Under the pieces are notes generated by a model. The model saw nothing but the letters and a program-made list of their open reading frames with translations. It searched no databases and was not told the origin of the DNA. Positions 3,572-55,420 of a stretch of DNA of 55,977 nucleotides are shown here, piece after piece (the stretch's first letter is position 1; every line of letters begins with the position of its first letter). The stretch is from IMG/VR virus record IMGVR_UViG_3300021091_000089, positions 1-55,977 of that record, one strand, 5' to 3'. Origin of the DNA: a virus (Duplodnaviria; Caudoviricetes). A program made the translations under genes and the position numbers.

Positions 3572-6500
3572 ATGGCACTGACATACGCACAAGCCCAACA
3601 AATTGCTGCAGCAAACCAGCCTCCGGGTGGATACACACAGGATCAGATTAATCAATGGGCTAGTTGGGCGGTGAGTAGCCCAGATGTTGCGTATTCTCCA
3701 AATCCAGCGCAACAGGTAAAAGATTCTATAGTTGTTGCACAAGCTAAAGCAGGTGAACGTAGTGGTGGTGAAAACTTAACTCAGTCTGATGTAAACCAAT
3801 TTAATAGCTTAGTTGCTTCTGGTGATTTTGTAAAAGCAGCACAGTTTTCTGAATCAAAAGGAGTCGATCCTGCGATTACAGCAGCTTATATTAATGCAAA
3901 TGCTGCTAATTTAGGCCTTCCCGCTGACTTTCGGGTCAATGCTATAAACGTCACCTCAGCGGCAGTAGCAGCCGCACAAGCAGCCGCACCAGCACCAGCA
4001 CCTGCTTCCGGTATAGCTGCTATTCCAATAACTTCACCAGCACCCGCACCAGCACCAGCACCAGCAGCCGCACCTGTTCCAACAGCACAAGCTGCCTTAG
4101 ATTATTACAGGGCAACTGGAGATATTGTAGGGACGCAGCAAAGACTTGCTGCGTCTGCGGGTATGCCAAACCTAACTAAAGAACAAGCAGCGGCTGGTGT
4201 TGTTACAAATATCTACGAAAAAAATTTAGATCGGGCGCCAGACCCATCGGGGCTACAAAATTACACAACTCAAATATTAAGCGGAGTTCCTTACGATACG
4301 GTTGTAAAAGAAATACAAGGATCTGCCGAAGCTGCTGCAAAAAAACCCGCTGAAGACGCTGCAAAAGCGCAAACTGCCCCACAAAGAAAGGGCTTAGATG
4401 CTCCAGTTTTAAATCGGTCTGAGATTATTGAGCTTTATCGTGGTATTGGTATGAACAAACCCAAAGATGAAGATATTGGGTTTTGGTTAGAGTACGCGCA
4501 ATACAACCCGGACGTTATAAATTCTGGCAACCCTAGAAACCAAGTAATCAATGCGTTTAAAGCAGCGGCTAAAGGCTACGGCTTAACACCTGCGGAAGAT
4601 TTTGGGCAGTTTGGTAGATCAGGCGCAAGGCCGACAATTACGTCTCCGATTCTCCCTGCGGGGCAAAAACTTTCCCCACTTCAATTTGCGACTCCGCAAA
4701 GGGGTATTGCTGCGCTCCGTGGCCCGGCGTATATGTCAAGTCTTTTAGAGATGCCTGTGGGTGCCACTAATGTAACCACTCCGTTTGGTGGTTCTCAAAC
4801 ACAGCAATTACCTGCAGCCCCAACAACTGTTCAACGACCCGGACCTTTTGCTTTAGAGACAGGTGTGTCGTTTGGTCCTTTAGCCGTATCTCCTGAAGCT
4901 GTTGCCCGTGAACAAGCCGCTGCGGTTAAAACTGCTACAAATGCCGCAAACGCTAAATTAAATCCTGCGGGTGGTACTACAAGCCTTCTTGATTATGGTG
5001 GTGGAGATAGTGATGGTTCGCCTGGACCGACAGGCCCAGGGATGTCGGCTAGTGATTTAGGTAATGCAATTGCACTTGGTTTAAATGCGCTTGGTTTGTC
5101 TGGCCTTGGTAGTATAGGTTTAGGTTCTTTTGGAGCGCCTGTTTCTGGTCCTGGAATGACAGGGCATGGTGGTAATGTTGCAGGTGGTCCTGATGATAGT
5201 CCTGCTCCTGGTCCTCCTGGGGCTGCGCCCGGAGTGGATGGCGATTTGGCAAAAGGCGGTTTAATTACATACCAAGAAGGTGGCATGTCTAAGCTTACGG
5301 CGAAAGAAGCTGGGTCGCAGTTTGATATGTCAAAGCTTCTCGATGAGCAAGGCCGCTTAATTGGTGGGTTTTTACGGCCTGAGTCAAGACCTGACCGCAA
5401 GGTTCCTGATGAGTATGGGGCTTACGGTAGGCCGGTTCGTGATGAATCTGGAAAGATTACAAACTACGAGTTTGTTCCGTATCAAAGCAACGTAGTCTTT
5501 AACCCCCGTCTAAGTGAAGCTGAAGCTCGTGGAATGACTGAAGATGAAAAAGCTCGTGCAATAAGAAATATGCAGATACGTATGGGGCTAACTGATCCTA
5601 TACCTCAAGGAATTATTTCTACAGGAATACCAGCAAATATACGTAGGTCAAGGGGATACGAACTTGCTCAAGGTGGCCTAGCCTCTCTTGCTGAAAACCT
5701 AGCCGATAAAGGCCGTGGCGGTGACTCCATGCTGGTCCACATGTCGCCTGAAGAAGTGTCAGGGTTGCGTGGGCTGGCTATGCACATGGGTGAGGACTTG
5801 ACCATTAACCCTCAGACTGGGTTGCCTGAAGCTAAACTTTTGAAGAAACTATTGCCAATCCTTCCGTTCATTCCGGGCATCGGTCAGATCTTAGGGCCTA
5901 TTGCTGCAAGCATGGGTTCTTTAGGCACGGCGTTATCAAGTTTTGCTTCTGCTAGTCCTCTTTTAGCTAAATCAATTGCTTCAGGAATTATTGGTGGGTT
6001 CACTGCGCCGGGCAAAGGGTTTAACTTTAAAGAAGGCTTGAAGACCGGTATAGGCGCCTTTGCTGGTGGTAAGCTGTTTGAAACTCTTAGCGCAATGGGT
6101 GCGCCGGGTGGAAGTGGTGTTAGTCCAAGTGGCGGTCAAGGAGTTAAAGTTGCTCCCGCATATGGGGGAGTGCCAACAACAGAAATTTTAATCCCGCCAA
6201 ATATTGATTACGCAAACGTTTTGGCTCAAGGTGCTCCCGGTTCTTTCCCAAAAATGACACCTACTGACTTTTCTAATATTTTAACTCCACCTGAAGGTGC
6301 TAGACTCGGATCTGGACCTACGGGAATTAAACTTAGCCCATCTGCAACAACTCCAGTTACTCCTGATTTTACTTCTCAAGTTAATCTACCAGGTGCTCCC
6401 GCATCAACTGATTACGCTCTTACTGGGCCTTCATCGTCATCGGCAGCATACCCTTCAACAGCTACAGGGGGGGAAAGAAAAATATTGGGCATGACTCCGG

Positions 6501-6994
6501 CTGAGATTTCTCTTGGTTTTACTGCTGGCTCTGCTTTGATGGGGTACGATGAACAACAAAAATTTGCTGCTGCTCAAGCTGCTAAAGAGCGTGAAGAAGA
6601 CGAGCGTCGCCGCAAATATGAAGAATTGTTTAGTCGTACACTTGGGCGTGTGCCTATGGCTGCTGGTGGTGGTCTTGTCGCTATGGCTGGCGGCGGGATG
6701 CCTACGTTTGAATATGGTGGTACGACTGCGCCGACTGGTGAGCCTCGGATGGTTACGGGTGCTGGTGATGGTATGAGCGATAATATACCTGCCAATATTG
6801 AAGGTGTGCAGGAAGCCCGGTTGGCTAACGATGAGTTTGTAGTGCCTGCTGATGTTGTAGCAGATATTGGCAACGGCTCCAGTAGTGCTGGGGCTAAGAA
6901 ACTTTACGCCATGATGGATCGAATCCGTAAAGCACGGCATGGCACGACAGAGCAACCCCCTGAAATTGATGCTGAGCGCTTAATGCCAGCGTAA
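3572..6994 (+). CDS. Large internal virion/ejection protein with DUF4214-like segments
   Basis: 1140 aa, Ala/Pro/Gly-rich. Contains IYEKNLDRAPDPSGLQNY (DUF4214-like), GRGGDSMLVHM...INPQTGLPEA and GDGMSDNIPA...EFVVPADVV modules typical of phage internal proteins. Confidence 0.65.
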   Translation: MALTYAQAQQIAAANQPPGGYTQDQINQWASWAVSSPDVAYSPNPAQQVKDSIVVAQAKAGERSGGENLTQSDVNQFNSLVASGDFVKAAQFSESKGVDPAITAAYINANAANLGLPADFRVNAINVTSAAVAAAQAAAPAPAPASGIAAIPITSPAPAPAPAPAAAPVPTAQAALDYYRATGDIVGTQQRLAASAGMPNLTKEQAAAGVVTNIYEKNLDRAPDPSGLQNYTTQILSGVPYDTVVKEIQGSAEAAAKKPAEDAAKAQTAPQRKGLDAPVLNRSEIIELYRGIGMNKPKDEDIGFWLEYAQYNPDVINSGNPRNQVINAFKAAAKGYGLTPAEDFGQFGRSGARPTITSPILPAGQKLSPLQFATPQRGIAALRGPAYMSSLLEMPVGATNVTTPFGGSQTQQLPAAPTTVQRPGPFALETGVSFGPLAVSPEAVAREQAAAVKTATNAANAKLNPAGGTTSLLDYGGGDSDGSPGPTGPGMSASDLGNAIALGLNALGLSGLGSIGLGSFGAPVSGPGMTGHGGNVAGGPDDSPAPGPPGAAPGVDGDLAKGGLITYQEGGMSKLTAKEAGSQFDMSKLLDEQGRLIGGFLRPESRPDRKVPDEYGAYGRPVRDESGKITNYEFVPYQSNVVFNPRLSEAEARGMTEDEKARAIRNMQIRMGLTDPIPQGIISTGIPANIRRSRGYELAQGGLASLAENLADKGRGGDSMLVHMSPEEVSGLRGLAMHMGEDLTINPQTGLPEAKLLKKLLPILPFIPGIGQILGPIAASMGSLGTALSSFASASPLLAKSIASGIIGGFTAPGKGFNFKEGLKTGIGAFAGGKLFETLSAMGAPGGSGVSPSGGQGVKVAPAYGGVPTTEILIPPNIDYANVLAQGAPGSFPKMTPTDFSNILTPPEGARLGSGPTGIKLSPSATTPVTPDFTSQVNLPGAPASTDYALTGPSSSSAAYPSTATGGERKILGMTPAEISLGFTAGSALMGYDEQQKFAAAQAAKEREEDERRRKYEELFSRTLGRVPMAAGGGLVAMAGGGMPTFEYGGTTAPTGEPRMVTGAGDGMSDNIPANIEGVQEARLANDEFVVPADVVADIGNGSSSAGAKKLYAMMDRIRKARHGTTEQPPEIDAERLMPA

Positions 6995-38140: not shown

Positions 38141-38141
38141 C

Positions 38142-38222: not shown

Positions 38223-38224
38223 GG

Positions 38225-38434
38225 TTACACCTCCTTCTTAGTTGGTTCTTTTTGTTTCACACTTGAAAGCACCCAGTCACAGTCTTCGCCGATCTTGTTG
38301 ACTAAGACATGGGCCTTGACACGCGCGGCGTGTTCGCTATCGGCCTCAAAGATGAAGCCCACCTTCAACGGTATTGCGTCGCCCCACACCCAGTTCTCGC
38401 AGTTATCGAACTCGATTTCGTAATACGCTTTCAT
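38225..38434 (-). CDS. Small protein, distant paralogue of the MK.YEI family
   Basis: MKAYYEIEF...FEADSEHAARVKA; start trimmed to ATG 38434. Confidence 0.6.
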   Translation of the reverse strand: MKAYYEIEFDNCENWVWGDAIPLKVGFIFEADSEHAARVKAHVLVNKIGEDCDWVLSSVKQKEPTKKEV

Positions 38435-38435
38435 C

Positions 38436-38597
38436 TCACACCCCCTTCTTTCTAAGAACGACACACTCGGACTTGAACCGCGCCCACTCTTGCTTGCCAT
38501 CACTGGCTTTTGGGACAGGTTGTCCCAAAGATTGTTTACCTTCAAAAGGTTTTGTTTTTACTGCGCGTAACAGCACACACTGCTCTGGTTTTAACAT
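38436..38597 (-). CDS. Small basic protein (53 aa, not in the ORF track)
   Basis: AAGGAG RBS; MLKPEQCVLLRAVK...SLGQPVPK...ECVVLRKKGV*; contains palindrome copy 1. Confidence 0.55.
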   Translation of the reverse strand: MLKPEQCVLLRAVKTKPFEGKQSLGQPVPKASDGKQEWARFKSECVVLRKKGV

Positions 38598-41019: not shown

Positions 41020-41616
41020 GTGTTAGATCATTTGGTAAATGCTGAGTACGAGCCAGAGGTGTTAAAAGCACCCATGGAAGGGTTTACGCCTTTAAAAAAG
41101 GTGGACGCCAACACTTTGCTTGACGCACAGATCAACACGACAGACTGGCTCACAGAACTGGGAGCCAAAGACGATGAAACGCTGGTGGCTCAGGCCCAAG
41201 AAACCCAAGCAAGAGACGCGTTCCACGCCCTGACTGCGGATCCCACCCGCGCCAAAGATGCACTGACACAGATTACGCTACCCCCGGCGATTCAAAAGCT
41301 GGTTGGAATGTTGACCATCTACGACTGGTCATTTGTTGACCACGCCCGTGAGCTGCGGGGAATGGCGGTGGCGAAAATTGTGGAAGAAACAGACCACCCA
41401 GATGCTCGTATCCGGTTAAAAGCACTGGAGTTGCTGGGTAAGGTCACAGAAGTGGGGTTGTTTACGGAGCGGTTTGAGGTGAAAAAGAGCGAGATGTCGG
41501 ATGCAGAGCTGGACGCCAAGATCAAAGAAAAGCTTGCAGCCTTAAACCGCACGATAGAAGTGGACGCCACAGAAGTCGAAGACATTTCTGTCCAAGAAGA
41601 TGAACAGAACCAGTGA
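41020..41616 (+). CDS. terS: Terminase small subunit (putative)
   Basis: Lies directly before TerL; RLKALELLGK...GLFTER motif. Confidence 0.7.
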   Translation: MLDHLVNAEYEPEVLKAPMEGFTPLKKVDANTLLDAQINTTDWLTELGAKDDETLVAQAQETQARDAFHALTADPTRAKDALTQITLPPAIQKLVGMLTIYDWSFVDHARELRGMAVAKIVEETDHPDARIRLKALELLGKVTEVGLFTERFEVKKSEMSDAELDAKIKEKLAALNRTIEVDATEVEDISVQEDEQNQ

Positions 41617-45594: not shown

Positions 45595-45785
45595 TACAAA
45601 GTTTTGTAGAAGTTTTACGCAAAAAGATTCGTGAGGATCTAAACAACTACGCCGACGATATGGCAGGCGGCGCTTGTCAAAATTTTGAGCAGTACCAAAA
45701 ACTCTGCGGAGTCATCCAAGGTCTGGCTATGGCAGAGGCTTATTTACTTGATCTTGCAAAGAAAGTAGAGGAATCAAATGAGTGA
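45591..45785 (+). CDS. Small conserved head-module protein
   Basis: EQYQKLCGVIQGL motif, between the portal and GroES genes. Confidence 0.7.
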   Translation: MIQSFVEVLRKKIREDLNNYADDMAGGACQNFEQYQKLCGVIQGLAMAEAYLLDLAKKVEESNE

Positions 45786-46140
45786 AGAATCAACCCCACG
45801 CCCAGCTACACAACTGCCAAAGCCTAAAGGGTGGAAGTTATTGTGTGCTTTGCCAGAAGTTGAAGACAAGTTTTCAGGCACTGACCTGCTTAAGCCAGAT
45901 TCGTTGGCAAAAGTAGAGGAATACAGCACAACCGTGCTTTGTGTCTTAGAGCTTGGCAGTGATGCCTACAAAGATGAAGGTAAGTTTCCTAACGGCCCGT
46001 GGTGTAAAAAGGGTGATTTTGTCTTAGTTAGGGCTTACTCAGGAACTCGTTTTAAAATTCACGGTCAAGAGTTCCGCCTGATTAACGACGATCAGGTTGA
46101 GGCTGTTGTGGAAGACCCACGCGGTTATACCCGCGCTTAA
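45778..46140 (+). CDS. groES: GroES-like co-chaperonin
   Basis: PKGWKLL, VLELG, KKGDFVL...YSGT and RLINDDQVEAVV motifs. Confidence 0.88.
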   Translation: MSEESTPRPATQLPKPKGWKLLCALPEVEDKFSGTDLLKPDSLAKVEEYSTTVLCVLELGSDAYKDEGKFPNGPWCKKGDFVLVRAYSGTRFKIHGQEFRLINDDQVEAVVEDPRGYTRA

Positions 46141-46151: not shown

Positions 46152-47084
46152 ATGCCTGAAAACAAATTTTCAAGTGAGCAAGAAGTACAAGAAGATAGTA
46201 TTGAGATTGAGACCGAAGAATCTGATATTGATCTTGAAATCGTAGACGACACGCCAGAAGAAGACCGTGGGCGTAAGCCTCTTGACCGGGATGTTAATGA
46301 CCCCAGTGATGAGGAAATTGCGGAATACAGCGACAAAGTCCAGAAACGGATGAAGGAGCTTACGCACGCACGTCACGACGAACGCCGTGCCAAAGAGTCA
46401 GCCTTACGGGAACGAGAAGAAGCTGTCCGTGTAGCGCAGAAACTGATTGAAGAAAATCGTGCACTGCGTCAAAACGTGAACACAAATCAGACCGTAGCCG
46501 TAGAAAGTATGAAGGCTCAGGCCGAAGCAGCGTTGGTCATGGCTCGTAAAAAGCTAAAAGAAGCCCAGGAAAACTATGACACTGACGCCATCATTGCTGC
46601 TCAAGAAGAACTGGCAGAGGCCAAATACCGGGCTGAAAGGATAAAAGACTACCGTCCTACCCCTTTACAAGAACCGAAACAAGAGGTATATAATCAGGAA
46701 ACTACGCCGCAAGTGCCTGTCCCAGACCAAAAAGCGTTGAGTTGGCAGCAACAAAACCAATGGTTTGGCGCAGATGAAGAAATGACCAGTCTCGCATTAG
46801 CGGTGCATAAGAAGTTGGTCGAATCGGGGGTTGACCCTCGCAGTGACGATTATTACGAGCGAGTAAACGCTCGCATGCGCGAAGTGTTTCCTAAATTCTT
46901 TGGAGAGACAAAAAAGGAACAACCGAGTAAACGTTCGGCTAACGTTGTAGCCGCTGTTACACGAACTGCAACTGGTAAAACCAGGGTTAAATTGACCAAG
47001 ACCCAAGAGGCGTTAGCCAGAAAATTTGGGTTAACCAACGAGCAGTACGCCAAAGAAGTCCTTAAACTTACATCGGAGTCCTAA
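46152..47084 (+). CDS. Capsid scaffolding protein (putative)
   Basis: Acidic N-terminus, KVQKRMKELT coiled coil, NQWFG motif, C-terminal ARKFGLTNEQYAK. Confidence 0.75.
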   Translation: MPENKFSSEQEVQEDSIEIETEESDIDLEIVDDTPEEDRGRKPLDRDVNDPSDEEIAEYSDKVQKRMKELTHARHDERRAKESALREREEAVRVAQKLIEENRALRQNVNTNQTVAVESMKAQAEAALVMARKKLKEAQENYDTDAIIAAQEELAEAKYRAERIKDYRPTPLQEPKQEVYNQETTPQVPVPDQKALSWQQQNQWFGADEEMTSLALAVHKKLVESGVDPRSDDYYERVNARMREVFPKFFGETKKEQPSKRSANVVAAVTRTATGKTRVKLTKTQEALARKFGLTNEQYAKEVLKLTSES

Positions 47085-48248: not shown

Positions 48249-49157
48249 ATGGCTATTTCACGTGCACAACTGCTTAAAGAACTCCTTCCCGGCCTGAACG
48301 CCCTGTTTGGTCTGGAGTACGCTCGCTACGGCGAAGAGTACAAGGAGATTTACGAGACTGAGACTTCTGAGCGCTCGTTTGAAGAGGAAACCAAACTGTC
48401 TGGCTTCTCCGCCGCTCCGGTGAAGAACGAAGGCAGCGCAATTGCCTACGATAACGCGCAGGAAGCTTTCACTGCTCGCTATACCCACGAAACCATTGCT
48501 CTTGGATTCTCGCTGACTGAAGAGGCTATTGAGGACAACCTCTATGACTCCCTGTCATCGCGCTATACCAAGTCGCTGGCCCGTGCTATGGCGTACACCA
48601 AAGAGGTAAAAGGCGCATCCGTTCTCAACAACGGGTTTAGTGCTTCTTTTCCCGGTGGTGATGGTGTTCCTCTGTTCTCTACTGTTCACCCACTGATTTC
48701 TGGTGGCGTTAACAGCAACACCCCTGCGACCCCTGCAGATTTGAATGAAACTTCTCTTGAGAACGCCGTTATTCAAATTGCTGCATGGACTGATGAGCGC
48801 GGCCTGCTGATTGCGGCTAAACCGCGTAAGCTCATTATTCCTTCTGCGTTGCAGTTCGTGGCAACCCGTCTTCTTGAGACTGAACTCCGCGTCGGTACCG
48901 CTGACAACGACATCAATGCTCTGAAGAACAACGGTTCTATCCCTGGTGGTTACGCAATTAACCACTGGCTGACGGACACGGACGCATGGTTCCTGACCAC
49001 GGATGTTCCTAACGGTATGAAGCACTTTGTGCGGACTCCGCTGTCGAACTCAATGGATGGAGACTTCGATACAGGGAACGTTCGTTACAAGAGTCGCGAG
49101 CGCTACTCGTTCGGGTTCTCGGACCCGCTTGGAATGTTCGGAAGCCCCGGAGCCTAA
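48249..49157 (+). CDS. Major capsid protein (HK97 fold, Mu gpT-like family)
   Basis: 302 aa with strongly biased codons; EEAIEDNLY, DGVPLFS..HP, KLIIP and RERYSFG motifs; followed by a terminator. Confidence 0.9.
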   Translation: MAISRAQLLKELLPGLNALFGLEYARYGEEYKEIYETETSERSFEEETKLSGFSAAPVKNEGSAIAYDNAQEAFTARYTHETIALGFSLTEEAIEDNLYDSLSSRYTKSLARAMAYTKEVKGASVLNNGFSASFPGGDGVPLFSTVHPLISGGVNSNTPATPADLNETSLENAVIQIAAWTDERGLLIAAKPRKLIIPSALQFVATRLLETELRVGTADNDINALKNNGSIPGGYAINHWLTDTDAWFLTTDVPNGMKHFVRTPLSNSMDGDFDTGNVRYKSRERYSFGFSDPLGMFGSPGA

Positions 49158-49212: not shown

Positions 49213-49241
49213 TTGCTTTTTGATTTTCTTTGTGATACATT
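49213..49241 (+). promoter_or_regulatory. Promoter of the HNH gene
   Basis: TTGCTT-N17-TACATT with an extended TG. Confidence 0.65.
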
Positions 49242-49269
49242 GCCTGTTACTAAGTCAAAGGAGATCAGC

Positions 49270-49872
49270 ATGGACTACAGTCAATACCCCACAAACCGCG
49301 CCGATGCCAAGGCTATTGGTGCTAAGTACTACTTCACGGGCGAACCTTGCAAACACGGGCACATAGCCTTAAGGAAGACAAAAGGGTCGTGCGTTGAGTG
49401 TTTAAAAGTTGAATGGCAACAAGCAGCCGAAAAACGCGCCGACTACTTTGTGCAGTACAACAAACGCGAAGACGTTAAAGACCGTAAACACGATTGGTAT
49501 CAGGACAATAAAGAACAAGTTATTGCCGCAGCATCAACACGGCCTCAACATGTAAAGCGGCAATACCAAACAGCTTGGAAAGAGCGAAATGTATTGTGGG
49601 TTCGGGCCGACACAAAGGCGCGTCGAAGAAAACACCGGCAGGCTACACCTCCTTGGTTAACAAGAAAGCAAAAGTCTGAGATACGACAGATTTACCAAAT
49701 AGCCATAACCATGTCTAAAACCACGGGGGAGCAGTACGTTGTAGACCATATCGTACCTTTACGTTCGGATGCGGTTTGTGGTCTGCACGTCCCTTGGAAC
49801 CTGCGGGTAATGACCCAAGAAGAAAACTTGAAGAAGTCAAACAAGCTTCTTGACTCCCCCCAAAATACCTGA
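49270..49872 (+). CDS. Free-standing HNH homing endonuclease
   Basis: YFTGEPCKHGH...CVEC N-terminal module and VDHIVPL...VCGLHVPWNL...EN..KSN; AAGGAG RBS before ATG 49270. Confidence 0.88.
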   Translation: MDYSQYPTNRADAKAIGAKYYFTGEPCKHGHIALRKTKGSCVECLKVEWQQAAEKRADYFVQYNKREDVKDRKHDWYQDNKEQVIAAASTRPQHVKRQYQTAWKERNVLWVRADTKARRRKHRQATPPWLTRKQKSEIRQIYQIAITMSKTTGEQYVVDHIVPLRSDAVCGLHVPWNLRVMTQEENLKKSNKLLDSPQNT

Positions 49873-49885: not shown

Positions 49886-49952
49886 CCAAGAAACCCACCC
49901 ATGCAGACTGGCTTGGCAGACTTAGTAGAGACTGTATGGGGATGTGCTACTA
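49886..49952 (+). ncRNA. Candidate structured 5' leader RNA with crossing helices
   Basis: CCAAG/CTTGG, CCCATGCAG/CTGTATGGG and TAGTAG/CTACTA pairings directly before the RBS. Confidence 0.5.
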
Positions 49953-49970
49953 CACGAAAGGACTATCGTC

Positions 49971-50510
49971 ATGGCACGTACTACTTTTCAGGGGCCAGTG
50001 CGGTCCCTTGGCGGCGTTTATCAACAAGGTGCGGATTCAGTTGTAGCAATTACTTCCAGCACTACACTTACTCCAGAAGAACACGGCGGACGGATTATTT
50101 CCGTTGGCGGCACGTTGGCGTCAAATCTTACTTTGACACTGCCAACAATTAATACCACGGCTAACGCTGCTTCTGCTGGCCCGGGGCCAGATCCTAATAC
50201 GCTGAACAATCAAGGCGTGGTCTACACCATCTGGATTCCTACCACAATTGCAACCTCATCGTTGAAGATTGGAACTGATGGAACAGACAAATATGTTGGT
50301 TCTGTGCTTTCAATAGATACCGATTCATCAGATGCTGCTCGTGGTTTTGTTTCAGGTGCTACAAATGACTTTATTAACTTTAACGGTGGCACCACTGGCG
50401 GTATTGCTGGGACATGGGTGCAGATTTTTGCCATAGCCGCATTAAAGTACATGGTTACCGGCGTAGCACTTGGATCAGGAACTGTAGCAACTCCGTTTGC
50501 TGACTCCTGA
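49971..50510 (+). CDS. Virion structural protein (putative head fibre/decoration)
   Basis: MARTTFQGPVRS start behind AAAGGA; Thr/Gly-rich beta protein ending ATPFADS. Confidence 0.65.
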   Translation: MARTTFQGPVRSLGGVYQQGADSVVAITSSTTLTPEEHGGRIISVGGTLASNLTLTLPTINTTANAASAGPGPDPNTLNNQGVVYTIWIPTTIATSSLKIGTDGTDKYVGSVLSIDTDSSDAARGFVSGATNDFINFNGGTTGGIAGTWVQIFAIAALKYMVTGVALGSGTVATPFADS

Positions 50511-50523: not shown

Positions 50524-50829
50524 ATGGCTATGCAAACTGATGTACAGGCCAGTGTACCAATCACTGGTGATGGGTTATTTACTGACCAAGCGGCGAACAA
50601 CCTTGGCAGGACTCGGGTAAAAAGCATCTACATTGTGCCGGGGGGTTCAGCAGGAAGCGTGGTGTTTAAAGATGGCGGTTCAGGCGGTACAACCGTTATG
50701 ACTGTAAACACTGTTGCTTCCGCAATCCAACCAACGTATATACTGATGCCCGGTCAAGGTGTTTTGTTTACAACAAACGTCTATGCGGATGTGACAAACA
50801 TTGGTTCTGTCACAATTTTCTATGGCTAA
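50524..50829 (+). CDS. Small beta-rich virion protein
   Basis: 101 aa, AGGAGG RBS, ending VTIFYG. Confidence 0.65.
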   Translation: MAMQTDVQASVPITGDGLFTDQAANNLGRTRVKSIYIVPGGSAGSVVFKDGGSGGTTVMTVNTVASAIQPTYILMPGQGVLFTTNVYADVTNIGSVTIFYG

Positions 50830-51109
50830 GTCAAAGGGCATGGGTATAAATACTTCTGTGAAGTCGGGCAATTTTCGCCCGACCAAGCAGGGTGCCGGTA
50901 TGACTGAGAAAGGTGTAGCTGCCTATCGTCGTGCTAATCCCGGCTCTAAACTTTCAACCGCTGTCACAGAAGATAAACCTACAGGCAAACGTGCTGCTAG
51001 GCGTAAGTCTTTCTGTGCTCGTTCACTAGGCCAGATGAAGAAATTTCCCGAGGCCGCAAAAGATCCCAACAGCCGCATTCGACAGGCTAGAAAAAGGTGG
51101 AAGTGCTAA
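50822..51109 (+). CDS. Basic protein, DUF6321-like
   Basis: GAGMTEKGVAAYRRANPGSKL...RRKSFCARS...ARKRWKC; start trimmed to ATG 50822. Confidence 0.7.
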   Translation: MAKSKGMGINTSVKSGNFRPTKQGAGMTEKGVAAYRRANPGSKLSTAVTEDKPTGKRAARRKSFCARSLGQMKKFPEAAKDPNSRIRQARKRWKC

Positions 51110-51358
51110 ATGGAACTGATTAACTTTTTCTGGAACGGAGTTCTTACTTTGGCAGCGGCATTTTTTGCGCTGGTTAGCTATATGGCACAAGAAAAATTTA
51201 AAAAACTAGAACAGCTTGAACAAAGGCTTAACGACACTCGTGTGGAGGTAGCTCGTGATCACGTCACTAAAGAAGAAGTTCAACGCATTACTGAACACAT
51301 TGACGCAAGGTTTAACCGCCTTGAAGAGAAAATTGACCGACTTATTTCAAAGGGGTAA
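51110..51358 (+). CDS. Membrane-anchored coiled-coil protein
   Basis: N-terminal TM segment, then RLEEKIDRL. Confidence 0.7.
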   Translation: MELINFFWNGVLTLAAAFFALVSYMAQEKFKKLEQLEQRLNDTRVEVARDHVTKEEVQRITEHIDARFNRLEEKIDRLISKG

Positions 51359-51363
51359 ATAAA

Positions 51364-51522
51364 ATGCCAATTAACATCGTTCCAAAAACAGGCCCTGATA
51401 AAGACAAGCCCGTTGACGCCAAAGGAAAACCTGTAAAGAAAGCTAAAGGCGGTATGGTCTCAGCATCGAAAAGAGCTGATGGTATTGCCAAAAAAGGTAA
51501 GACAAGAGGGAAGATCTGCTAA
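51364..51522 (+). CDS. Small Lys-rich protein (52 aa, not in the ORF track)
   Basis: MPINIVPK...KKAKGGMVSASKRADGIAKKGKTRGKIC*; coupled to the next ATG. Confidence 0.75.
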   Translation: MPINIVPKTGPDKDKPVDAKGKPVKKAKGGMVSASKRADGIAKKGKTRGKIC

Positions 51523-52181
51523 TGTACTTAACCAGCAATATTCCGTACTTCAAATGCTGGGTAAGGAAAGAGTTTACAAATGGACACCAAAACTACCACG
51601 GGGAATACATACACGGGCTGGCAGTCGCAGTCACGACTATTCCTGATCGGTGCCTTGGGTTCCAAATTATTTTCACAGGGTGTGAAGCAGAAGGTGAGCC
51701 AAACCCCCACGGCGGGGCTATGTGGGCCAGGATGCCGATCACTGCTCTTGTGGGTGATATACCCCTTCAAGAGTGGCCTGAGCGGATGGAGACTCACCTG
51801 GCGCAGCCTTGGGACTGTAGCTCGTACAACCACGGGATCGTTAAGATCCAAAGAGCGCAACCTTCTCCTTGGTTATGCAAGATCAACAATGAATTTCATA
51901 CAGGGCGTTATCTGTTCACGGTGGACTATGCTGAGAGTGATGTTGCAGAAGACCCATCTCAGCACAAACAAAGTCATGTACTTATATTGACTGACGCAGG
52001 AAAATGGACGGGAAATGTAGTGGCGTTACCTAACAATCGAGTGCGAGTTACCAGCCCGGCCTATTGGGTCACTGGAGAAGGAGCACCTGATTTTAGACCG
52101 AGCCAATGGATTCATTGTGCAGAGCAGGACGATTCGTACATGGACCCCGAGGTGACTTTTAACAACTTGTATAAGGAGTAA
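51522..52181 (+). CDS. Conserved globular phage protein of unknown function
   Basis: 219 aa; NIP..CWVRKE, GAMWARMPI, PWDCSS, YLFTVD, HKQSH and PNNR motifs. Confidence 0.75.
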   Translation: MYLTSNIPYFKCWVRKEFTNGHQNYHGEYIHGLAVAVTTIPDRCLGFQIIFTGCEAEGEPNPHGGAMWARMPITALVGDIPLQEWPERMETHLAQPWDCSSYNHGIVKIQRAQPSPWLCKINNEFHTGRYLFTVDYAESDVAEDPSQHKQSHVLILTDAGKWTGNVVALPNNRVRVTSPAYWVTGEGAPDFRPSQWIHCAEQDDSYMDPEVTFNNLYKE

Positions 52182-52412
52182 GTGATGAAATCAAAAATGA
52201 TGGCTGGCGGTGGTATGGCTAAAATGGGTATGGGCGGCGGTGTGAAAGCCAAAATGGGTGTTTCTAAGATGAGCGCAGTAAAAACTGGTAAACCTGCTAT
52301 GGGTAGTGCTTCCAAGCGTGCTGATGGGGTTGCTGTAAAAGGCAAAACCAAGGGTAGGATGTTGGCTGGTGGTGGTAAAGCCAAGATGATGCGTAGCGGC
52401 GGAGCGTGCTAA
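52182..52412 (+). CDS. Small Lys/Met/Gly-rich protein
   Basis: Four xxGG units plus SASKRADGVAVKGKTKGR; AAGGAG RBS. Confidence 0.75.
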   Translation: MMKSKMMAGGGMAKMGMGGGVKAKMGVSKMSAVKTGKPAMGSASKRADGVAVKGKTKGRMLAGGGKAKMMRSGGAC

Positions 52413-52691
52413 ATGATTGCCTCGCGCGGGATGGGTGCTATCCGCAAATCCAAGATGCCTAAGGCTAAAAAGGGTAAGCGGAAAGACGGCGATACTTTTA
52501 CGATGTTTAAAGAGGGTGGTCAGTCTCGCGTCAATCAATCTGGCAATTACACGAAGCCAGAGCTACGCAAGAGGATCTTTAACCAAGTAAAAGCCGCCGC
52601 TACACACGGCACGGGTGCAGGCCAATGGTCGGCCCGTAAGGCTCAGCTAGTCGCCAAGAAGTACAAAGCTGCTGGTGGTGGCTACAAGTGA
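52413..52691 (+). CDS. Basic protein, DUF5872-like
   Basis: NYTKPELRKRI...GQWSARKAQLVAKKYKAAGGGY. Confidence 0.7.
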   Translation: MIASRGMGAIRKSKMPKAKKGKRKDGDTFTMFKEGGQSRVNQSGNYTKPELRKRIFNQVKAAATHGTGAGQWSARKAQLVAKKYKAAGGGYK

Positions 52692-52921
52692 AAGCTCCAC
52701 AACAAAGCCTTAAAGATTGGGGGGCGCAGAAATGGAGGACCAAGAGTGGTAAGAAATCTTCCGTTACAGGCGAGCGTTATTTACCAGAGAAAGCGATCCA
52801 ATCTCTATCTCCAGCAGAGTATGCAGCGACGACGCGAGCTAAAAGAGCTGGTAAAGCTAGTGGAAAGCAATTCGTTAAACAACCCAAATCAATCGCAGCA
52901 AAGACAAAGGGATTTCGATAA
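52688..52921 (+). CDS. Basic protein, DUF5872-like
   Basis: QQSLKDW..QKWRTKSG...ERYLPEKA...GKQFV. Confidence 0.7.
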   Translation: MKAPQQSLKDWGAQKWRTKSGKKSSVTGERYLPEKAIQSLSPAEYAATTRAKRAGKASGKQFVKQPKSIAAKTKGFR

Positions 52922-53181
52922 TGGCTAAACCGTTTCCAGACTTAAACAAAGACGGCGAAGTAACAAAAGCAGATGTGCTTATGGGCCGAGGTGTTATAGG
53001 TAAAAAGAAGGGCGGTTGGATTTCCAAGGCCATAAAGAAGCCCGGTGCCCTGCGTCAGTCTCTTGGCGTTAAAAAGGGTGAGAAGATTCCCGCTGGCAAA
53101 CTAGCTGCTGCCGCTAAGAAGCCCGGTAAGATGGGTCAGAGAGCGCGGTTAGCACAGACTTTAAAGGGGTTTAAGAAGTGA
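52921..53181 (+). CDS. Small Lys-rich protein with an EF-hand-like loop
   Basis: FPDLNKDGEVTKADVL, then KKGGWISKAIKKPGALR...RARLAQTL. Confidence 0.72.
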   Translation: MAKPFPDLNKDGEVTKADVLMGRGVIGKKKGGWISKAIKKPGALRQSLGVKKGEKIPAGKLAAAAKKPGKMGQRARLAQTLKGFKK

Positions 53182-53930
53182 CTACTTCCGGCTCAGCCAG
53201 CTTTAATCTTGACCTTAACGATATTGTCGAAGAGGCATACGAGAGAGTTGGCATTGAGGTACGCACAGGCTATGAGCACAGGACTGCACGGCGCAGTTTG
53301 AATTTGTTGTTTGCCGATTGGGCAAACCGGGGCATCAACCTGTGGACGATTGAGCAGGGGTCGCTCAATTTAACGCAAGGCGAGCCTACGTATGCGCTAC
53401 CCGTAGATACGGTAGACCTTTTAGAGCATGTCATTCGTACCGGCGCAGGCGATATTTCAACCCAGGCAGACCTGACAATCACGCGTATTAGTGTTTCTAC
53501 TTACGCCACAATCCCAAATAAACTTTCGCAAGGTCGACCTATTCAGGTCTGGATCAATCGGCAGACAGGGGCGGAATACCCCCCTGGAGGGCGTCCAGCA
53601 GGCACAAACCCCGCTACAGGTATCTTACCCCCCAACATCAACGTCTGGCCCACCCCAGACGGCTCACAGCCCTACCAATTCGTCTACTGGCGTATGCGGC
53701 GCATCCAAGATGCTGGCGGTGGCGTGAACACCCAAGACATTCCTTTTCGGTTTTTACCCTGTCTGGTGGCAGGATTGTCGTATTACTTGGCGCTCAAAGT
53801 CCCAGAGGCGTACAACCGGTTGGCTGATTTAAAAGTCATGTACGACGAGGCTTGGGAACTGGCTGCGTCTGAAGATCGTGAAAAAGCGCCGGATCGGTTG
53901 GTGCCACGTCGGATGTATATCAGCGGCTGA
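53178..53930 (+). CDS. Head-tail adaptor (P22 gp4 / tail tubular A-like)
   Basis: ARRSLNLLFADWANRG, GRP, VWPTPD and LVAGLSYYLA motifs. Confidence 0.75.
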   Translation: MTTSGSASFNLDLNDIVEEAYERVGIEVRTGYEHRTARRSLNLLFADWANRGINLWTIEQGSLNLTQGEPTYALPVDTVDLLEHVIRTGAGDISTQADLTITRISVSTYATIPNKLSQGRPIQVWINRQTGAEYPPGGRPAGTNPATGILPPNINVWPTPDGSQPYQFVYWRMRRIQDAGGGVNTQDIPFRFLPCLVAGLSYYLALKVPEAYNRLADLKVMYDEAWELAASEDREKAPDRLVPRRMYISG

Positions 53931-53931
53931 C

Positions 53932-54324
53932 ATGAGTAACAGATTTGCTTCCGGTAAAAATGCGATTGCGCAGTGTGATCGCTGCAACTTTCGTTTTCCG
54001 CTAAAAGAATTAACCACAATAACGGTCAAAACTAAAAACGTAAACTTGTTGGTTTGCAGTGAGTGCTGGGACCCAGACCACCCACAGTTACAGTTAGGAA
54101 TGTATCCGGTTTCAGACCCACAGGCTTTACGTAACCCCAGACCTGACTCAAACAGCTACATCACTTCTGGTGTAAACGTAGACGGAAACCCGTCTGGTGG
54201 TAGTAGAATCTTCCAATGGGGTTATGCTCCTGTAGGCGGTGCGAGAGCTAACGCTGACGGGCTTACACCGAACAATCTGGCGCTGGGCGTAACGCTTGGC
54301 ACTGTAACCGTAACAACTTCATAG
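53932..54324 (+). CDS. Zinc-ribbon protein of the head-completion module
   Basis: CDRC...VCSECWDPDHPQL...PRPD; start trimmed to ATG 53932. Confidence 0.72.
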   Translation: MSNRFASGKNAIAQCDRCNFRFPLKELTTITVKTKNVNLLVCSECWDPDHPQLQLGMYPVSDPQALRNPRPDSNSYITSGVNVDGNPSGGSRIFQWGYAPVGGARANADGLTPNNLALGVTLGTVTVTTS

Positions 54325-54333
54325 GAGTAAATC

Positions 54334-54501
54334 ATGGCAGACAAAAAAGCAATGCAAGCACTTAAAGAGCATGCCAATAAACCCGCTGGTGAGGCTCATA
54401 AAGGCCTGAAAAAAGGGGGCAAGACCAACCTCGACATGAAGAAGTACGGGCGTGGTATGGCTAAGGTGATGAACCAGCGGTCTTCCTCAAGGGGACGATA
54501 A
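54334..54501 (+). CDS. Small Lys-rich protein (55 aa, not in the ORF track)
   Basis: AGGAG RBS; MADKKAM...HKGLKKGGKTNLDMKKYGRGMAKVMNQ...*. Confidence 0.72.
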   Translation: MADKKAMQALKEHANKPAGEAHKGLKKGGKTNLDMKKYGRGMAKVMNQRSSSRGR

Positions 54502-54764
54502 TGGCTAAGTACAGCATGAAAGTTAAGGGTAAAGAGATTGGCCCTGCTGAAATCTATGCGCCTCCGCACACGATGAAAGGCACGCCTACCACTGTGAAGA
54601 CATATCAGACCACAGAAAGCGGCCCTGAGATAGTCAAGAAAATGAATATGTCGGTGGGTAACATCAACCGGTTTGAGCCGCCTATCAATCCCTATGGGGT
54701 TGGTGAGATGCGTGGGTATGGTGCTGCTATTAAGGGCCGTAAGATCAGCGGGAAGATGGGATGA
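54501..54764 (+). CDS. Small basic protein
   Basis: 87 aa ending MRGYGAAIKGRKISGKMG. Confidence 0.7.
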   Translation: MAKYSMKVKGKEIGPAEIYAPPHTMKGTPTTVKTYQTTESGPEIVKKMNMSVGNINRFEPPINPYGVGEMRGYGAAIKGRKISGKMG

Positions 54765-55420
54765 ACTTAACGACGCTTCGCGCCACTATTCGGGCTTATG
54801 CTGAGAATGACTTCCCACAGACTGTGGGCAGTGGTGGTTTAACGTCTGACCAACAAGTTGATACCTTTATTCGTCAGGCTGAAGAGCGTATTTTTAATAG
54901 CGTTCAGTTTCCCAATTTTCGCAAGAACCAGACGGGCAACACGACAGCAGATAACAAGTATCTTGGGACGCCGGTAGACTTTTTGGCGCCCTATTCTCTG
55001 GCAGTTATTCTGCCCACTGGGGAGTACGAGTATCTGTTAAACAAGGATGTGAACTACATCAGAGCGGCTTTCCCAAGTCCAACATACAAAGCGGCGCCTA
55101 AGTACTACGCCATATTTGATGACAACACGTTTATCCTTGGGCCAACACCGAACCTGAACTATTCGATGGAGCTGCATTACTTCTATTACCCTGAGTCCAT
55201 TACGACTGCTAACACGACTTGGCTGGGCGATAACTTCGATATGACCCTACTCTACGGTGCGTTGTCTGAGGCTGCGGCATTTATGAAGGCTGAACAAGAT
55301 GTTATTGCCAACTACGCTAAACGGTACGAAGAGGCGATGATTCTGGCTAAGCGCATGGGTGATGGCATGGAGCGCAGGGACGCTTACAGGTCTGGTCAGG
55401 TCAGAATGACGGTGAACTAA
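54761..55420 (+). CDS. Second head-tail adaptor-like protein
   Basis: FIRQAEERI, P.DFL, PKYYA, LGPTP and LLYGAL.EA motifs. Confidence 0.72.
   Translation: MNLTTLRATIRAYAENDFPQTVGSGGLTSDQQVDTFIRQAEERIFNSVQFPNFRKNQTGNTTADNKYLGTPVDFLAPYSLAVILPTGEYEYLLNKDVNYIRAAFPSPTYKAAPKYYAIFDDNTFILGPTPNLNYSMELHYFYYPESITTANTTWLGDNFDMTLLYGALSEAAAFMKAEQDVIANYAKRYEEAMILAKRMGDGMERRDAYRSGQVRMTVN

What the first reader, a model, noticed from the sequence alone, without database searches (positions are those of the whole stretch)
50822..54764. Cluster of small Lys/Gly-rich proteins sharing an x-x-x-Gly-Gly motif with the internal virion proteins: possible protease-processing or capsid-loading system
Seen: eight short, very basic ORFs lie between the capsid and adaptor genes, two of them missed by the ORF track. 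Five carry a five-residue unit ending in GG, usually with a hydrophobic first residue: KAKGG (51364 ORF); MAGGG, LAGGG and MRSGG (52182); FKEGG (52413); KKKGG (52921); LKKGG (54334). The same unit recurs about 45 kb away in the internal proteins: LAKGG (~5246), YQEGG (~5270), LAQGG (~5663), MAAGG and MAGGG (~6656-6697), and AAGGG/FSNGG (~8328-8366). There it tends to sit just before conserved modules. Established: adenovirus protease cuts (M/I/L)xGG sites in basic core proteins, ASFV pS273R cuts GG-X in core polyproteins, and T4 internal proteins use a capsid-targeting sequence. Inference: this phage may package protamine-like core peptides and ejection proteins using a common GG signal for cleavage or sorting. 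I do not know of such a system described for P22-like podoviruses.
Basis: partly seen in the sequence, partly recalled or inferred. Interest (0 to 1): 0.78.

Follow-up and report, generated by a model that had tools for sequence, protein, structure and literature searches.

The report
Shared end-tag on phage mini-proteins
An abundant uncultured aquatic phage lineage encodes, between its capsid and neck genes, a variable set of small basic proteins, many of which end in the same peptide; the peptide is probably an address or docking tag, but its partner is unknown.

Summary
The eight small basic ORFs are real, conserved genes, and every quoted GG string sits at the stated coordinate. Within this genome alone, however, x-x-x-GG is no commoner than Gly content predicts: 13 observed against 11.9 expected, and 2 against 1.7 for the hydrophobic form once the 76-aa repeat protein is removed.

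The real signal shows in relatives. Two ORFs (51364 and 52182) carry a near-invariant module with a K-G-G, S-A-S-K-R-A-D-G and G-x4-G-K-T signature. This module defines at least 8352 protein clusters. It ends exactly three residues before the stop in 140 of the 150 best hits, and it is fused to unrelated, mostly disordered bodies. These genes lie only between capsid and adaptor, 0 to 5 per genome.

Hydrophobic-x-x-GG units are enriched in the bodies (z = 6). The GG sites of the 1140-aa internal protein are invariant, and profiles of its GG modules hit the small proteins far more often than shuffled controls.

No protease was found, so cleavage is unsupported. My best reading is a portable docking or address tag for loading into the virion (confidence 0.4). 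The lineage is HTVC023P/DSL-LC04-like, not P22-like.

The parts
48249..49157 (+). Major capsid protein. It marks the left boundary of the locus.
   Evidence: Pfam Phage_capsid_4 E 7e-14 and Mu-like gpT E 1.8e-7. phrog_371 major head protein. 78-91% identical in 23 related loci.
50822..51109 (+). 95-aa basic protein (pI 11.5) with a DUF6321 domain. It is the conserved left flank of the variable segment. It has no GG in this copy. It ends in Cys, which is kept in at least 90% of 50 relatives.
   Evidence: Pfam DUF6321 E 3.4e-13, 50.5 bits against a cut-off of 28.5. Found in 46 of 84 and 47 of 77 loci. Module 'A'. Conservation.
51110..51358 (+). 82-aa protein with a hydrophobic N-terminus and a coiled-coil-like remainder. 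Not basic (pI 6.1).
   Evidence: phrog_7885 E 7e-10. Found in 23 of 84 loci. pI.
51364..51522 (+). 52-aa protein made of little more than the tag. It is a minimal member of the C-terminally tagged family.
   Evidence: Tag profile E 2.1e-17. Residues R25, D27, G28, G33, K34, T35 and G37 of its last 40 aa are invariant in 62 tags.
51439..51519 (+). The tag itself (KAKGGMVSASKRADGIAKKGKTRGKIC): a K-G-G unit, then S-A-S-K-R-A-D-G, then a G-x4-G-K-T signature, then three final residues before the stop.
51522..52181 (+). 219-aa acidic protein (pI 5.4) of unknown function. It looks like an inserted accessory gene, not a core part of the locus.
   Evidence: phrog_3704 E 5.5e-31. Found in only 2 of 84 loci. 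The atlas search gave viral clusters only, with scores of 0.76, which is a lead at most.
52182..52412 (+). 76-aa protein, the second type of tagged protein. The tag core (residues 42-58, nt 52305-52355) is flanked by M-x-x-G-G-G repeat units whose number varies between relatives. It ends in Cys.
   Evidence: 158 homologues. In alignment A1, V33, S44, D48, G49, A51, G54, K55, T56 and G58 are invariant and repeat number varies. Tag profile E 1.6e-7.
52413..52691 (+). 92-aa basic protein. It has a disordered N-half that holds the conserved [YF]-x-E-G-G unit, followed by a two-helix module.
   Evidence: phrog_17747 E 2.6e-26. G35 and G36 are invariant in 46 sequences. AlphaFold2: residues 33-38 have pLDDT below 50; helices at 49-61 and 74-86 have pLDDT about 80-87.
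52688..52921 (+). 77-aa basic protein that folds as a small helical domain. It carries no GG. In many relatives it is fused to GG-unit tails or to the preceding gene.
   Evidence: phrog_14910 E 4e-35. AlphaFold2 mean pLDDT 86.5. No PDB fold match at E<=0.001. 780 longer fused forms.
52921..53181 (+). 86-aa basic protein. The N-terminal part is variable and holds an EF-hand/dockerin-like loop and KKKGG. The C-terminal module is conserved.
   Evidence: The N-part is conserved in only about 20% of 22 relatives and the C-part in at least 90%. Dockerin_1 E 0.05, below the cut-off.
53178..53930 (+). First SU10-type adaptor-like protein. It marks the right boundary of the tagged-gene segment.
   Evidence: Pfam SU10_adaptor E 8.9e-7, 30 bits against a cut-off of 27. 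At least 600 relatives in IMG/VR.
53878..54324 (+). 148-aa Cys-rich protein. It is a core gene of the neck region and is not one of the basic mini-proteins.
   Evidence: Found in 83 of 84 loci. phrog_28581 E 8.6e-5.
54334..54501 (+). 55-aa basic protein with a conserved L-x-K-G-G-K-T unit. The same module also occurs inside type-2 tagged proteins of relatives.
   Evidence: 58 distinct relatives, with GG conserved at about 90% or more. Module seen in ORFs L044_1169, L058_4742 and L041_5382.
54501..54764 (+). 87-aa basic protein with a conserved R-G-x-G-A-A-x-K-G tail and no GG.
   Evidence: 38 relatives. Found in 32 of 84 loci.
54761..55420 (+). Second SU10-type adaptor protein.
   Evidence: Pfam SU10_adaptor E 6e-22, 79.5 bits.
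3572..6994 (+). 1140-aa Gly-rich presumed internal/ejection protein with three conserved GG modules: nt 5237-5305 (residues 556-578), nt 5639-5722 (residues 690-717) and nt 6641-6727 (residues 1024-1052).
   Evidence: 2174 homologues. GG pairs are kept in 111-120 of 120. Module profiles hit the small proteins more often than shuffled controls. The neighbouring gene 7003-8034 matches phrog_4287 'DNA ejection protein' at E 4.5e-9, and gene 9689-17854 carries LPD38.

Best explanation
Shown. The capsid-to-adaptor interval of this podophage lineage is a variable locus. Conserved flanks (the DUF6321 protein on the left; the 52413 and 52688 proteins on the right) enclose 0 to 5 genes per genome. The products of these genes have unrelated, mostly low-complexity bodies and share one module of about 25 residues. 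That module has a K-G-G unit, S-A-S-K-R-A-D-G and a G-x4-G-K-T signature, and it ends exactly three residues before the stop. The window has two such genes, 51364 and 52182. Short hydrophobic-(A/K)-x-G-G units recur in the bodies, in 52413 and 54334, and at invariant sites of the 1140-aa internal protein.

Inferred. The module and the GG units are docking peptides for one conserved partner of the assembling head: the capsid inner face, the scaffold core, the portal or the ejection-protein complex. Through them a changeable set of small proteins would be loaded into the procapsid together with the ejection protein and later leave with the DNA. [quoted passage not shown]
For: 1. Size of the family. 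A profile of 62 tags finds 8352 cluster representatives at E<=0.001 and 2450 at E<=1e-10 among 1.84 billion.

2. Fixed C-terminal register. Exactly 3 residues follow the core in 63 of 73 ORFs, 133 of 156 and 140 of 150. The last residue is V in 108 of those 140.

3. Unrelated bodies. 130 tag-stripped bodies fall into 97 BLAST components. None of the 79 members of 100 aa or more reaches a Pfam cut-off.

4. Selection acts on the protein, not the DNA. Among 185 distinct core DNAs the invariant D, G, G, T and G use all their synonymous codons. Codon differences over all pairs are 103719 synonymous against 41351 non-synonymous.

5. Locus specificity.
- 73 of 73 tagged ORFs lie upstream of the adaptor, and 41 of 41 lie between capsid and adaptor.
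- In 77 loci found through the tag itself, 143 of 145 lie upstream of the adaptor and 85 of 85 downstream of the capsid gene.
- In one complete 67-kb genome all 4 matches lie within 2 kb just upstream of the adaptor.
- 18 of the 23 adaptor-seeded loci with a full interval carry at least one tag, with 0-5 per locus.

6. GG units. In 135 tag-stripped bodies hydrophobic-xxGG occurs 54 times against 24.9 expected (z 6.1; 0 of 1000 shuffles reach it). [FY]xxGG occurs 25 times against 5.0 (z 9.5).

7. Link to the internal protein.
- A profile of its module at residues 690-717 scores 5 bits or more on 58 of 150 tagged proteins, against 0 of 150 reversed and 2 of 750 block-shuffled.
- Its C-terminal GG module scores 5 bits or more on 37 of 120 relatives of 52182, against 7 of 600 shuffled.
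- The tag profile's best site in 64 of 116 internal proteins is this same module.

8. Precedent. [quoted passage not shown]
Against: - No experiment or proteome places any of these proteins in a virion. Eight of the 10 related phage records tested, 8 isolates and 2 environmental genomes, lack the tag. Pag-Yong1 has one weak match (E 1.3e-4) and Caulobacter phage GB2A one dubious match interrupted by a stop.
- The link to the internal protein rests on short, low-scoring matches. hhalign gives E 0.075 and probability 0.75%. In the window alone the tag ORF scores 5.1 bits, E 0.54, ranking behind a non-coding frame.
- The sequences counted are related to one another, so the counts are not independent events.
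- That the 1140-aa protein is internal is itself inferred from its neighbours.
- Gene position in a late operon does not prove a virion role, because accessory genes also insert there. Examples are the 219-aa gene (2 of 84 loci) and the HNH-like gene at 49213 (5 of 84 loci).
- The tag does not resemble the conserved C-terminus of the scaffolding protein.
Confidence: 0.4

Rival explanations
1. The tag is a phosphate or nucleic-acid anchor. The basic C-terminal module, with its G-x4-G-K-T signature, binds DNA, RNA or another polyphosphate. The proteins would then coat or condense phage DNA, in the head or in the cytoplasm, without needing a protein receptor.
For: The tag carries a net charge of about +7, while the bodies are near neutral. 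G28, G33, K34 and T35 are invariant and form the Walker-A pattern. All eight window ORFs have pI 9.9-11.5. From my own knowledge, not from any call: isolated P-loop peptides can bind phosphate ligands and nucleic acids.
Against: Unspecific charge binding would not need an invariant Asp, an invariant Thr, or a fixed distance of 3 residues from the C-terminus. Proteins cannot enter the head bound to DNA that is threaded through the portal, so a loading step would still be needed. Only 5 residues follow the Thr, so no P-loop fold can form around the motif.
Confidence: 0.2
2. The GG units are cut sites for a protease that processes the small proteins and the internal proteins, as in adenovirus or ASFV cores.
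For: GG units sit at the borders between conserved modules. The same modules are fused in some genomes and are separate genes in others. In 52413 the unit lies in a disordered stretch just before a folded module. [MIL]xGG is mildly over-represented in + strand proteins: 24 against 13.9 with a whole shuffle (p 0.004) and 24 against 16.2 with a local shuffle (24 of 500 shuffles reach it).
Against: No clan CE, C39 or prohead protease appears in Pfam scans of 63 ORFs or PHROGs scans of the 36 + strand ORFs. The preferred hydrophobic residue is three places before the first Gly, not two as in the adenovirus site. Cutting after the K-G-G of the tag would release the conserved part as a 20-residue peptide. 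The residues after GG are conserved as well, which fits a binding motif better than a cut site.
Confidence: 0.07
3. The tag is a host-directed C-terminal signal. It would be read by a host machine that recognises basic C-termini ending in a hydrophobic residue, for example an unfoldase/protease adaptor site or a tail-specific protease. It would then control turnover or occupy that machine.
For: The tag is strictly C-terminal, with a free end and a hydrophobic or Cys last residue in 136 of 140 cases. The bodies are disordered.
Against: The genes lie only in the head module. The conserved part is about 25 residues, far longer than known C-terminal degrons (from my own knowledge). Hosts of this lineage are unknown, so no host partner can be named.
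Confidence: 0.08
4. No common function. The GG strings shared by the small ORFs and the internal proteins are by-products of Gly/Lys/Met-rich flexible linkers. The tag is simply the only conserved domain of one fast-evolving gene family that duplicates in place.
For: There is no enrichment within the window once 52182 is set aside. KKKGG of 52921 is not conserved. The profile-profile match is not significant. Tandem paralogues could explain several tags per genome.
Against: Block-shuffled controls that keep local composition score far lower: 2 of 750 against 58 of 150, and 7 of 600 against 37 of 120. GG sites are invariant in 111-120 of 120 internal proteins, with conserved neighbouring residues. 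97 unrelated body groups among 130 are hard to derive from simple duplication.
Confidence: 0.2

Closest known systems
Capsid-targeting sequence (CTS) of phage T4 internal proteins IPI-III and Alt
   Same: A highly diverse set of small proteins shares only a short terminal peptide (for T4: PMC3012670, passages read). Here the genes also sit in a variable locus of the virion gene block. This is the closest functional analogy.
   Different: The T4 CTS is N-terminal and is removed by the prohead protease (from my own knowledge). Here the module is C-terminal and about 25 residues long, nothing suggests that it is removed, and no prohead protease was detected. There is no sequence similarity. Presence in the virion has not been shown here.
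Encapsulin cargo targeting peptides
   Same: Short C-terminal peptides on otherwise unrelated cargo proteins that bind the inside of an HK97-fold shell, with cargo genes next to the shell gene (search listing and abstracts of PMC10960027 and PMC8346489).
   Different: Encapsulin peptides are not basic and have a different consensus (from my own knowledge). Their cargo are enzymes. Here the bodies match no Pfam family at its cut-off, the compartment is a DNA-filled phage head, and the receptor is unknown.
Adenovirus protease (M/I/L)XGG-X sites in core proteins, and ASFV pS273R GG-X sites
   Same: Basic virion-core proteins carrying GG motifs preceded by a hydrophobic residue.
   Different: No matching protease gene was found. 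The spacing of the hydrophobic residue differs. Residues after GG are conserved. No processing evidence exists.
Walker A / P-loop motif
   Same: The invariant residues of the tag spell G-x4-G-K-T.
   Different: The motif ends 5 residues before the C-terminus of a low-complexity protein. There is no preceding beta strand, no following helix and no Walker B. It is not a P-loop NTPase domain.
Small virion proteins of T7-like podophages that are ejected at infection (gp6.7, gp7.3)
   Same: Small proteins encoded among head and tail genes of a podophage, present in particles and released into the cell (from my own knowledge; not checked in any call).
   Different: No homology was tested or claimed. 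The T7 proteins are single conserved genes, not a variable tagged family.

Membership tests
T4-type CTS internal-protein system | Diverse proteins sharing only a short terminal peptide | tested here: met
   130 tag-stripped bodies fall into 97 BLAST components, and the tag is near-invariant.
T4-type CTS internal-protein system | Genes clustered in a variable locus of the virion gene block | tested here: met
   0-5 tagged genes per genome between conserved flanks, always between capsid and adaptor.
T4-type CTS internal-protein system | Signal is N-terminal and removed by a prohead protease | tested here: not met
   The tag is C-terminal, with 3 residues after the core in 140 of 150. No prohead protease appears in Pfam scans of 63 ORFs or PHROGs scans of the 36 + strand ORFs.
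T4-type CTS internal-protein system | Proteins present in the head and ejected with the DNA | not testable with these tools
   This needs virion proteomics. No cultured relative carries the canonical tag.
Adenain/ASFV-type GG-X processing | A virus-encoded clan CE (or similar) cysteine protease | tested here: not met
   None found. The only protease-like hits are a DUF2201 metallopeptidase-like gene (31666-32856, - strand) and a weak M28 hit (34311-35315, - strand), plus an M15 cell-wall peptidase at 162-539.
Adenain/ASFV-type GG-X processing | Consensus sites enriched beyond composition | tested here: inconclusive
   [MIL]xGG in + strand proteins: 24 against 16.2 with a local shuffle (24 of 500 shuffles reach it). 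Small cluster: 3 against 1.8, not significant.
Adenain/ASFV-type GG-X processing | New termini after GG in mature proteins | not testable with these tools
   This needs N-terminomics.
Encapsulin-type cargo loading | C-terminal peptide on unrelated cargo encoded beside an HK97-fold shell gene | tested here: met
Encapsulin-type cargo loading | Peptide binds the inner face of the shell protein | not testable with these tools
   No binding assay or reliable model is available.
P-loop NTPase | Walker A motif G-x4-G-K-[ST] | tested here: met
   G28, G33, K34 and T35 are invariant in 62 tags. D, G, G, T and G are kept in 185 of 185 core DNAs.
P-loop NTPase | Motif embedded in an alpha/beta domain with Walker B | tested here: not met
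   Only 5 residues follow the Thr. None of 79 members reaches a Pfam cut-off.
Pfam DUF6321 (ORF 50822) | Score above the curated cut-off | tested here: met
   50.5 bits against 28.5.
SU10-type adaptor (53178 and 54761) | Score above the curated cut-off | tested here: met
   30.0 and 79.5 bits against 27.

The most novel reading that the evidence does not exclude
One of the most abundant uncultured aquatic podophage lineages uses a peptide code: hydrophobic-A-x-G-G units plus a C-terminal anchor that looks like a P-loop. This code would address both its ejection protein and a fast-changing library of disordered mini-proteins to the same site inside an HK97-fold capsid. That would be a natural cargo-loading system that works like encapsulin targeting peptides or the T4 CTS but evolved independently. 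Its cargo would be injected with the DNA, plausibly to counter host defences.
Probability: 0.22. Interest if true: 0.8.

Novelty: new variant of a known kind. Interest (0 to 1): 0.6.

Why it matters
If the tag is an address label, it gives a simple sequence rule for finding proteins that these abundant environmental phages carry in their heads and inject. In T4, proteins of that kind include anti-restriction factors. It would also offer a short portable peptide for loading foreign proteins into HK97-type capsids.

Even without a known function, the family is very large (at least 8352 clusters at 50% identity). It matches no Pfam, NCBIfam or PHROGs model in the scans made here. A full-text search for four strings of its core found no relevant paper. 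It is therefore an uncharacterised piece of phage biology.

The work also shows that counting the motif in a single genome was the wrong test. The signal appears only in comparison with relatives.

Tried and rejected
- Complex prediction. The capsid protein (alignment of 24) was modelled with the 40-residue tag (alignment of 62). The verdict was 'no answer': score 0.00 against a mark of 0.32, and the controls were not run. This says nothing either way about binding.
- Scaffold mimicry. The window's scaffold C-terminus has a stretch that looks a little like the tag. In 42 relatives the G-K-T-R part of that stretch is not conserved, so I dropped the idea.
- GroES mobile-loop mimicry. I asked whether GG followed by hydrophobic residues copies a GroEL-binding loop. 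The phage's own GroES-like protein has no GG in its loop region. Dropped to a remote possibility.
- Tag profile against all six frames of the window. It hits only 51364 and 52182. The other small ORFs and the internal proteins are not detected at E<1.
- hhalign. Tag against internal protein gave E 0.075; 52413 against internal protein gave E 0.34. Neither is significant.
- Fold and structure searches. The 52688 model had no PDB match at E<=0.001 and only unnamed viral relatives in BFVD. Sequence searches of solved structures gave nothing meaningful for 52413, 50822 or the tag. For 52688 the only hits were a 14-residue match to designed 'Cake' propeller repeats, with no stretch passing on its own.
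- Family libraries. NCBIfam and permissive Pfam scans of the small ORFs gave nothing usable.
- Other look-ups. tblastn of the 52-aa ORF against cultured phages found no match. The atlas search of the 219-aa protein gave viral clusters at a score of 0.76 only. Cluster names were all 'hypothetical' or plainly wrong.
- Literature. 'DUF6321' returned 0 papers. Four strings from the tag core returned 5 papers, of which the 4 listed are unrelated. The Pam1 paper concerns a 36-kb phage of another lineage and does not bear on these ORFs.

Full report
WHAT THE WINDOW IS

The window is an IMG/VR virus record of 55,977 bp. It is linear and CheckV rates it 88% complete. The + strand carries:
- large terminase (41600-43117) and portal (43126-45594);
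- a GroES-like gene, a coiled-coil scaffold-like gene (46152-47084) and the major capsid protein (48249-49157);
- a cement-like protein (49944-50510) and two SU10-type adaptor-like genes (53178-53930 and 54761-55420).

At the left end of the record come an M15 peptidase, a virion protein and a 1140-aa Gly-rich protein (3572-6994). They are followed by a protein matching a PHROG labelled 'DNA ejection protein' (7003-8034), a 551-aa protein and a 2721-aa LPD38 polyvalent protein.

By capsid protein the nearest cultured phages are Pag-Yong1/MinM2 (73%) and then phage 023Pt_psg01, DSL-LC04, HTVC027P and HTVC023P (62-66%). This is not a P22-like phage.

The late module runs off the right end of the record and resumes at the left end. 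In relatives the homologue of gene 540-2450 lies 3.9-10.5 kb downstream of the adaptor. In L055 the 1140-aa homologue starts 9.4 kb downstream. The '45 kb' separation is therefore an effect of where the record is cut.

THE OBSERVATION

Eight short ORFs with pI 9.9-11.5 lie between the capsid gene and the second adaptor gene. They are packed head to tail, with gaps of -4 to +9 nt. Two non-basic genes are interspersed: an 82-aa protein with a hydrophobic N-terminus, and a 219-aa acidic protein found in only 2 of 84 related loci.

All eight are genuine genes. ORF 52182 has 158 homologues. The others recur in 26-66 of the 84 related loci and are mostly syntenic.

ENRICHMENT IN THIS GENOME

With residues shuffled inside each protein:
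- GG in the nine small ORFs: 13 against 11.9 expected (p=0.42).
- Hydrophobic-xxGG: 8 against 2.7, but 5 of the 8 lie in the 76-aa repeat protein. Without it the count is 2 against 1.7.
- Three internal proteins: 10 against 9.0 with a local shuffle.
- + strand proteins overall show a mild GG excess, 113 against 97.4 (local shuffle, p=0.036). [MIL]xGG is 24 against 16.2, and 24 of 500 shuffles reach it.

WHAT RELATIVES SHOW

Searching with the adaptor gave at least 600 related stretches in IMG/VR, of which 80 loci were kept. Scanning their + strand ORFs for the core shared by 51364 and 52182 found 73 ORFs of 53-345 aa in 42 of 84 loci.
- In 63 of the 73, exactly three residues follow the core.
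- All 73 lie upstream of the adaptor.
- All 41 that sit in a locus also holding the capsid gene lie between the two.

In an alignment of 62 tails, seven positions are invariant: R25, D27, G28, G33, K34, T35 and G37. The K-G-G glycines are kept in at least 90%. G28 to T35 spell G-x4-G-K-T.

A profile of this alignment, run against 1.84 billion cluster representatives, found 8352 at E<=0.001 and 2450 at E<=1e-10. Among the best 150:
- 140 end exactly three residues after the core, and the last residue is V in 108 of those;
- the 130 bodies of 40 aa or more fall into 97 separate BLAST groups.

Other properties of the family:
- None of the 79 members of 100 aa or more reaches a Pfam cut-off.
- The bodies are near neutral (median net charge +2). 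The tag region carries about +7.
- At the invariant residues all synonymous codons are in use in 185 distinct core DNAs, and synonymous codon differences outnumber non-synonymous ones 2.5 to 1. Conservation is therefore at the protein level. This is not a DNA repeat.

A second sample seeded with the tag itself gave 77 new loci. All of them hold window-like neighbouring genes. Of their tagged ORFs, 143 of 145 lie upstream of the adaptor and 85 of 85 downstream of the capsid gene.

In 47 loci (46 related loci plus the window itself) with a complete interval the order is:
- the DUF6321 protein;
- then 0-5 tagged genes and a second gene type, some copies of which also carry the tag core;
- then the 52413-type and 52688-type genes.

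18 of the 23 adaptor-seeded loci in that set hold at least one tag. Of 10 related phage records (8 isolates and 2 environmental genomes), 8 have none. Pag-Yong1 has one weak match and Caulobacter phage GB2A one dubious match.

THE GG UNITS

In the 135 tag-stripped bodies:
- hydrophobic-xxGG occurs 54 times against 24.9 under a local shuffle (z 6.1; 0 of 1000 shuffles reach it);
- [FY]xxGG occurs 25 times against 5.0 (z 9.5).

Positional conservation holds for the unit in 52413 (G35 and G36 invariant in 46 sequences). It also holds in 54334, in the tag and in the repeat tail of 52182. It does not hold in 52921.

In the AlphaFold2 model of 52413 the unit lies in a stretch with pLDDT below 50, just ahead of a two-helix module. 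ORF 52688 folds confidently (pLDDT 86.5) into a small helical domain with no PDB match. The modules are fused in some genomes and are separate genes in others; 780 longer forms of 52688 were found.

THE LINK TO THE INTERNAL PROTEIN

The 1140-aa protein has 2174 homologues.

Direct profile-profile comparison with the tag is not significant (E 0.075). Tests against controls are clearer.
The controls give 0 of 150 reversed and 2 of 750 block-shuffled.
- The C-terminal module (the MAAGG/MAGGG site) scores 5 bits or more on 37 of 120 relatives of 52182, against 7 of 600 shuffled.
- The first module (the LAKGG/YQEGG site) does so on 19 of 120, against 1 of 600.
- Conversely, the tag profile's best site in 64 of 116 internal proteins is the 690-717 module.

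The sequences are related to one another, so these are not independent counts, and the scores are low. In the window alone the match is not significant (E 0.54). I take the resemblance as real at family level but weak.

MECHANISM

What is shown: a portable, strictly C-terminal peptide under strong selection, on unrelated disordered bodies, confined to the head-gene block, with motif kinship to a conserved module of the presumed ejection protein.

What is inferred: these peptides dock on one conserved partner during head assembly, so that a changeable set of proteins is packaged and later released with the DNA. T4 offers the precedent. Its internal proteins are a diverse set sharing only a capsid-targeting sequence (PMC3012670, passages read). 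Encapsulin targeting peptides offer a C-terminal, HK97-shell analogue (abstracts only).

I put this reading at 0.4. The rivals are:
- a phosphate or nucleic-acid anchor (0.2);
- no common function beyond flexible linkers and one duplicating family (0.2);
- a host-directed C-terminal signal (0.08);
- proteolytic processing at GG (0.07), for which no protease gene was found.

NOVELTY

The two tag-bearing window ORFs (51364, 52182) match nothing in Pfam, PHROGs or NCBIfam. Of the 79 longer tagged proteins, scanned against Pfam only, none reaches a cut-off. Full-text searches found no paper for 'DUF6321' and only unrelated papers for four strings from the tag core. These searches cover open-access text only.

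Earlier notes of this scan describe other terminal tags on small phage proteins in other lineages. They are unchecked leads, but they suggest that the theme is general. I therefore class this as a new variant of a known kind.

Noticed in passing
window 50822-51109, 51364-51522, 52182-52412: Three of the small basic proteins end in Cys. The terminal Cys is kept in at least 90% of 50 DUF6321 relatives. Most aligned relatives of 52182 also end in a Cys, and 13 of 140 canonical tags end in C. No explanation.
   Followed up: partly
window 52939-52974 (N-terminus of ORF 52921): An EF-hand/dockerin-like calcium-loop pattern (D-x-N-x-D-G-x-V-T-x-x-D). Pfam Dockerin_1 gives E 0.05, below the cut-off. 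The same module is fused to the 52688 domain or to tagged proteins in relatives (P0417, P0277).
   Followed up: partly
window 52413-52921: ORFs 52413 and 52688 overlap by 4 nt. In 7 related loci one 131-aa ORF matches both, and 780 longer fused forms of 52688 exist. Gene borders in this interval shift between genomes.
   Followed up: partly
window 52688-52921: The 77-aa protein gives a confident model (pLDDT 86.5) of a small five-helix domain. It has no PDB match at E<=0.001 and only unnamed viral relatives. It may be an undescribed fold.
   Followed up: partly
window 49213-49872: An HNH/endonuclease VII-like gene (phrog_1035 E 2.4e-15) sits between the capsid and cement genes. It is present in only 5 of 84 related loci, so it is probably a mobile homing-endonuclease insertion.
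   Followed up: no
window 51522-52181: A 219-aa acidic protein (phrog_3704, labelled 'ferredoxin' there and 'PurM' in HTVC023P). It lies in the middle of the basic cluster but is present in only 2 of 84 related loci. Function unknown.
   Followed up: partly
window 28944-29513 and 38134-38458: Direct repeats in the early (- strand) region: three copies of a 36-nt unit (64-81% identical to the reference copy) and two copies of a 31-nt unit. They may be regulatory sites.
   Followed up: no
window 45778-46140: A phage GroES-like co-chaperonin (Cpn10 E 1.1e-4) lies between portal and scaffold and is conserved in all cultured relatives examined. Its loop region lacks the usual Gly-Gly.
   Followed up: partly
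window 9689-17854: A 2721-aa polyvalent protein with an LPD38 domain (E 1.2e-32) follows the presumed ejection proteins.
   Followed up: no
window 3963-4094: An Ala-Pro-rich 12-nt-periodic repeat inside the 1140-aa protein (6 overlapping copies of a 36-nt unit).
   Followed up: no
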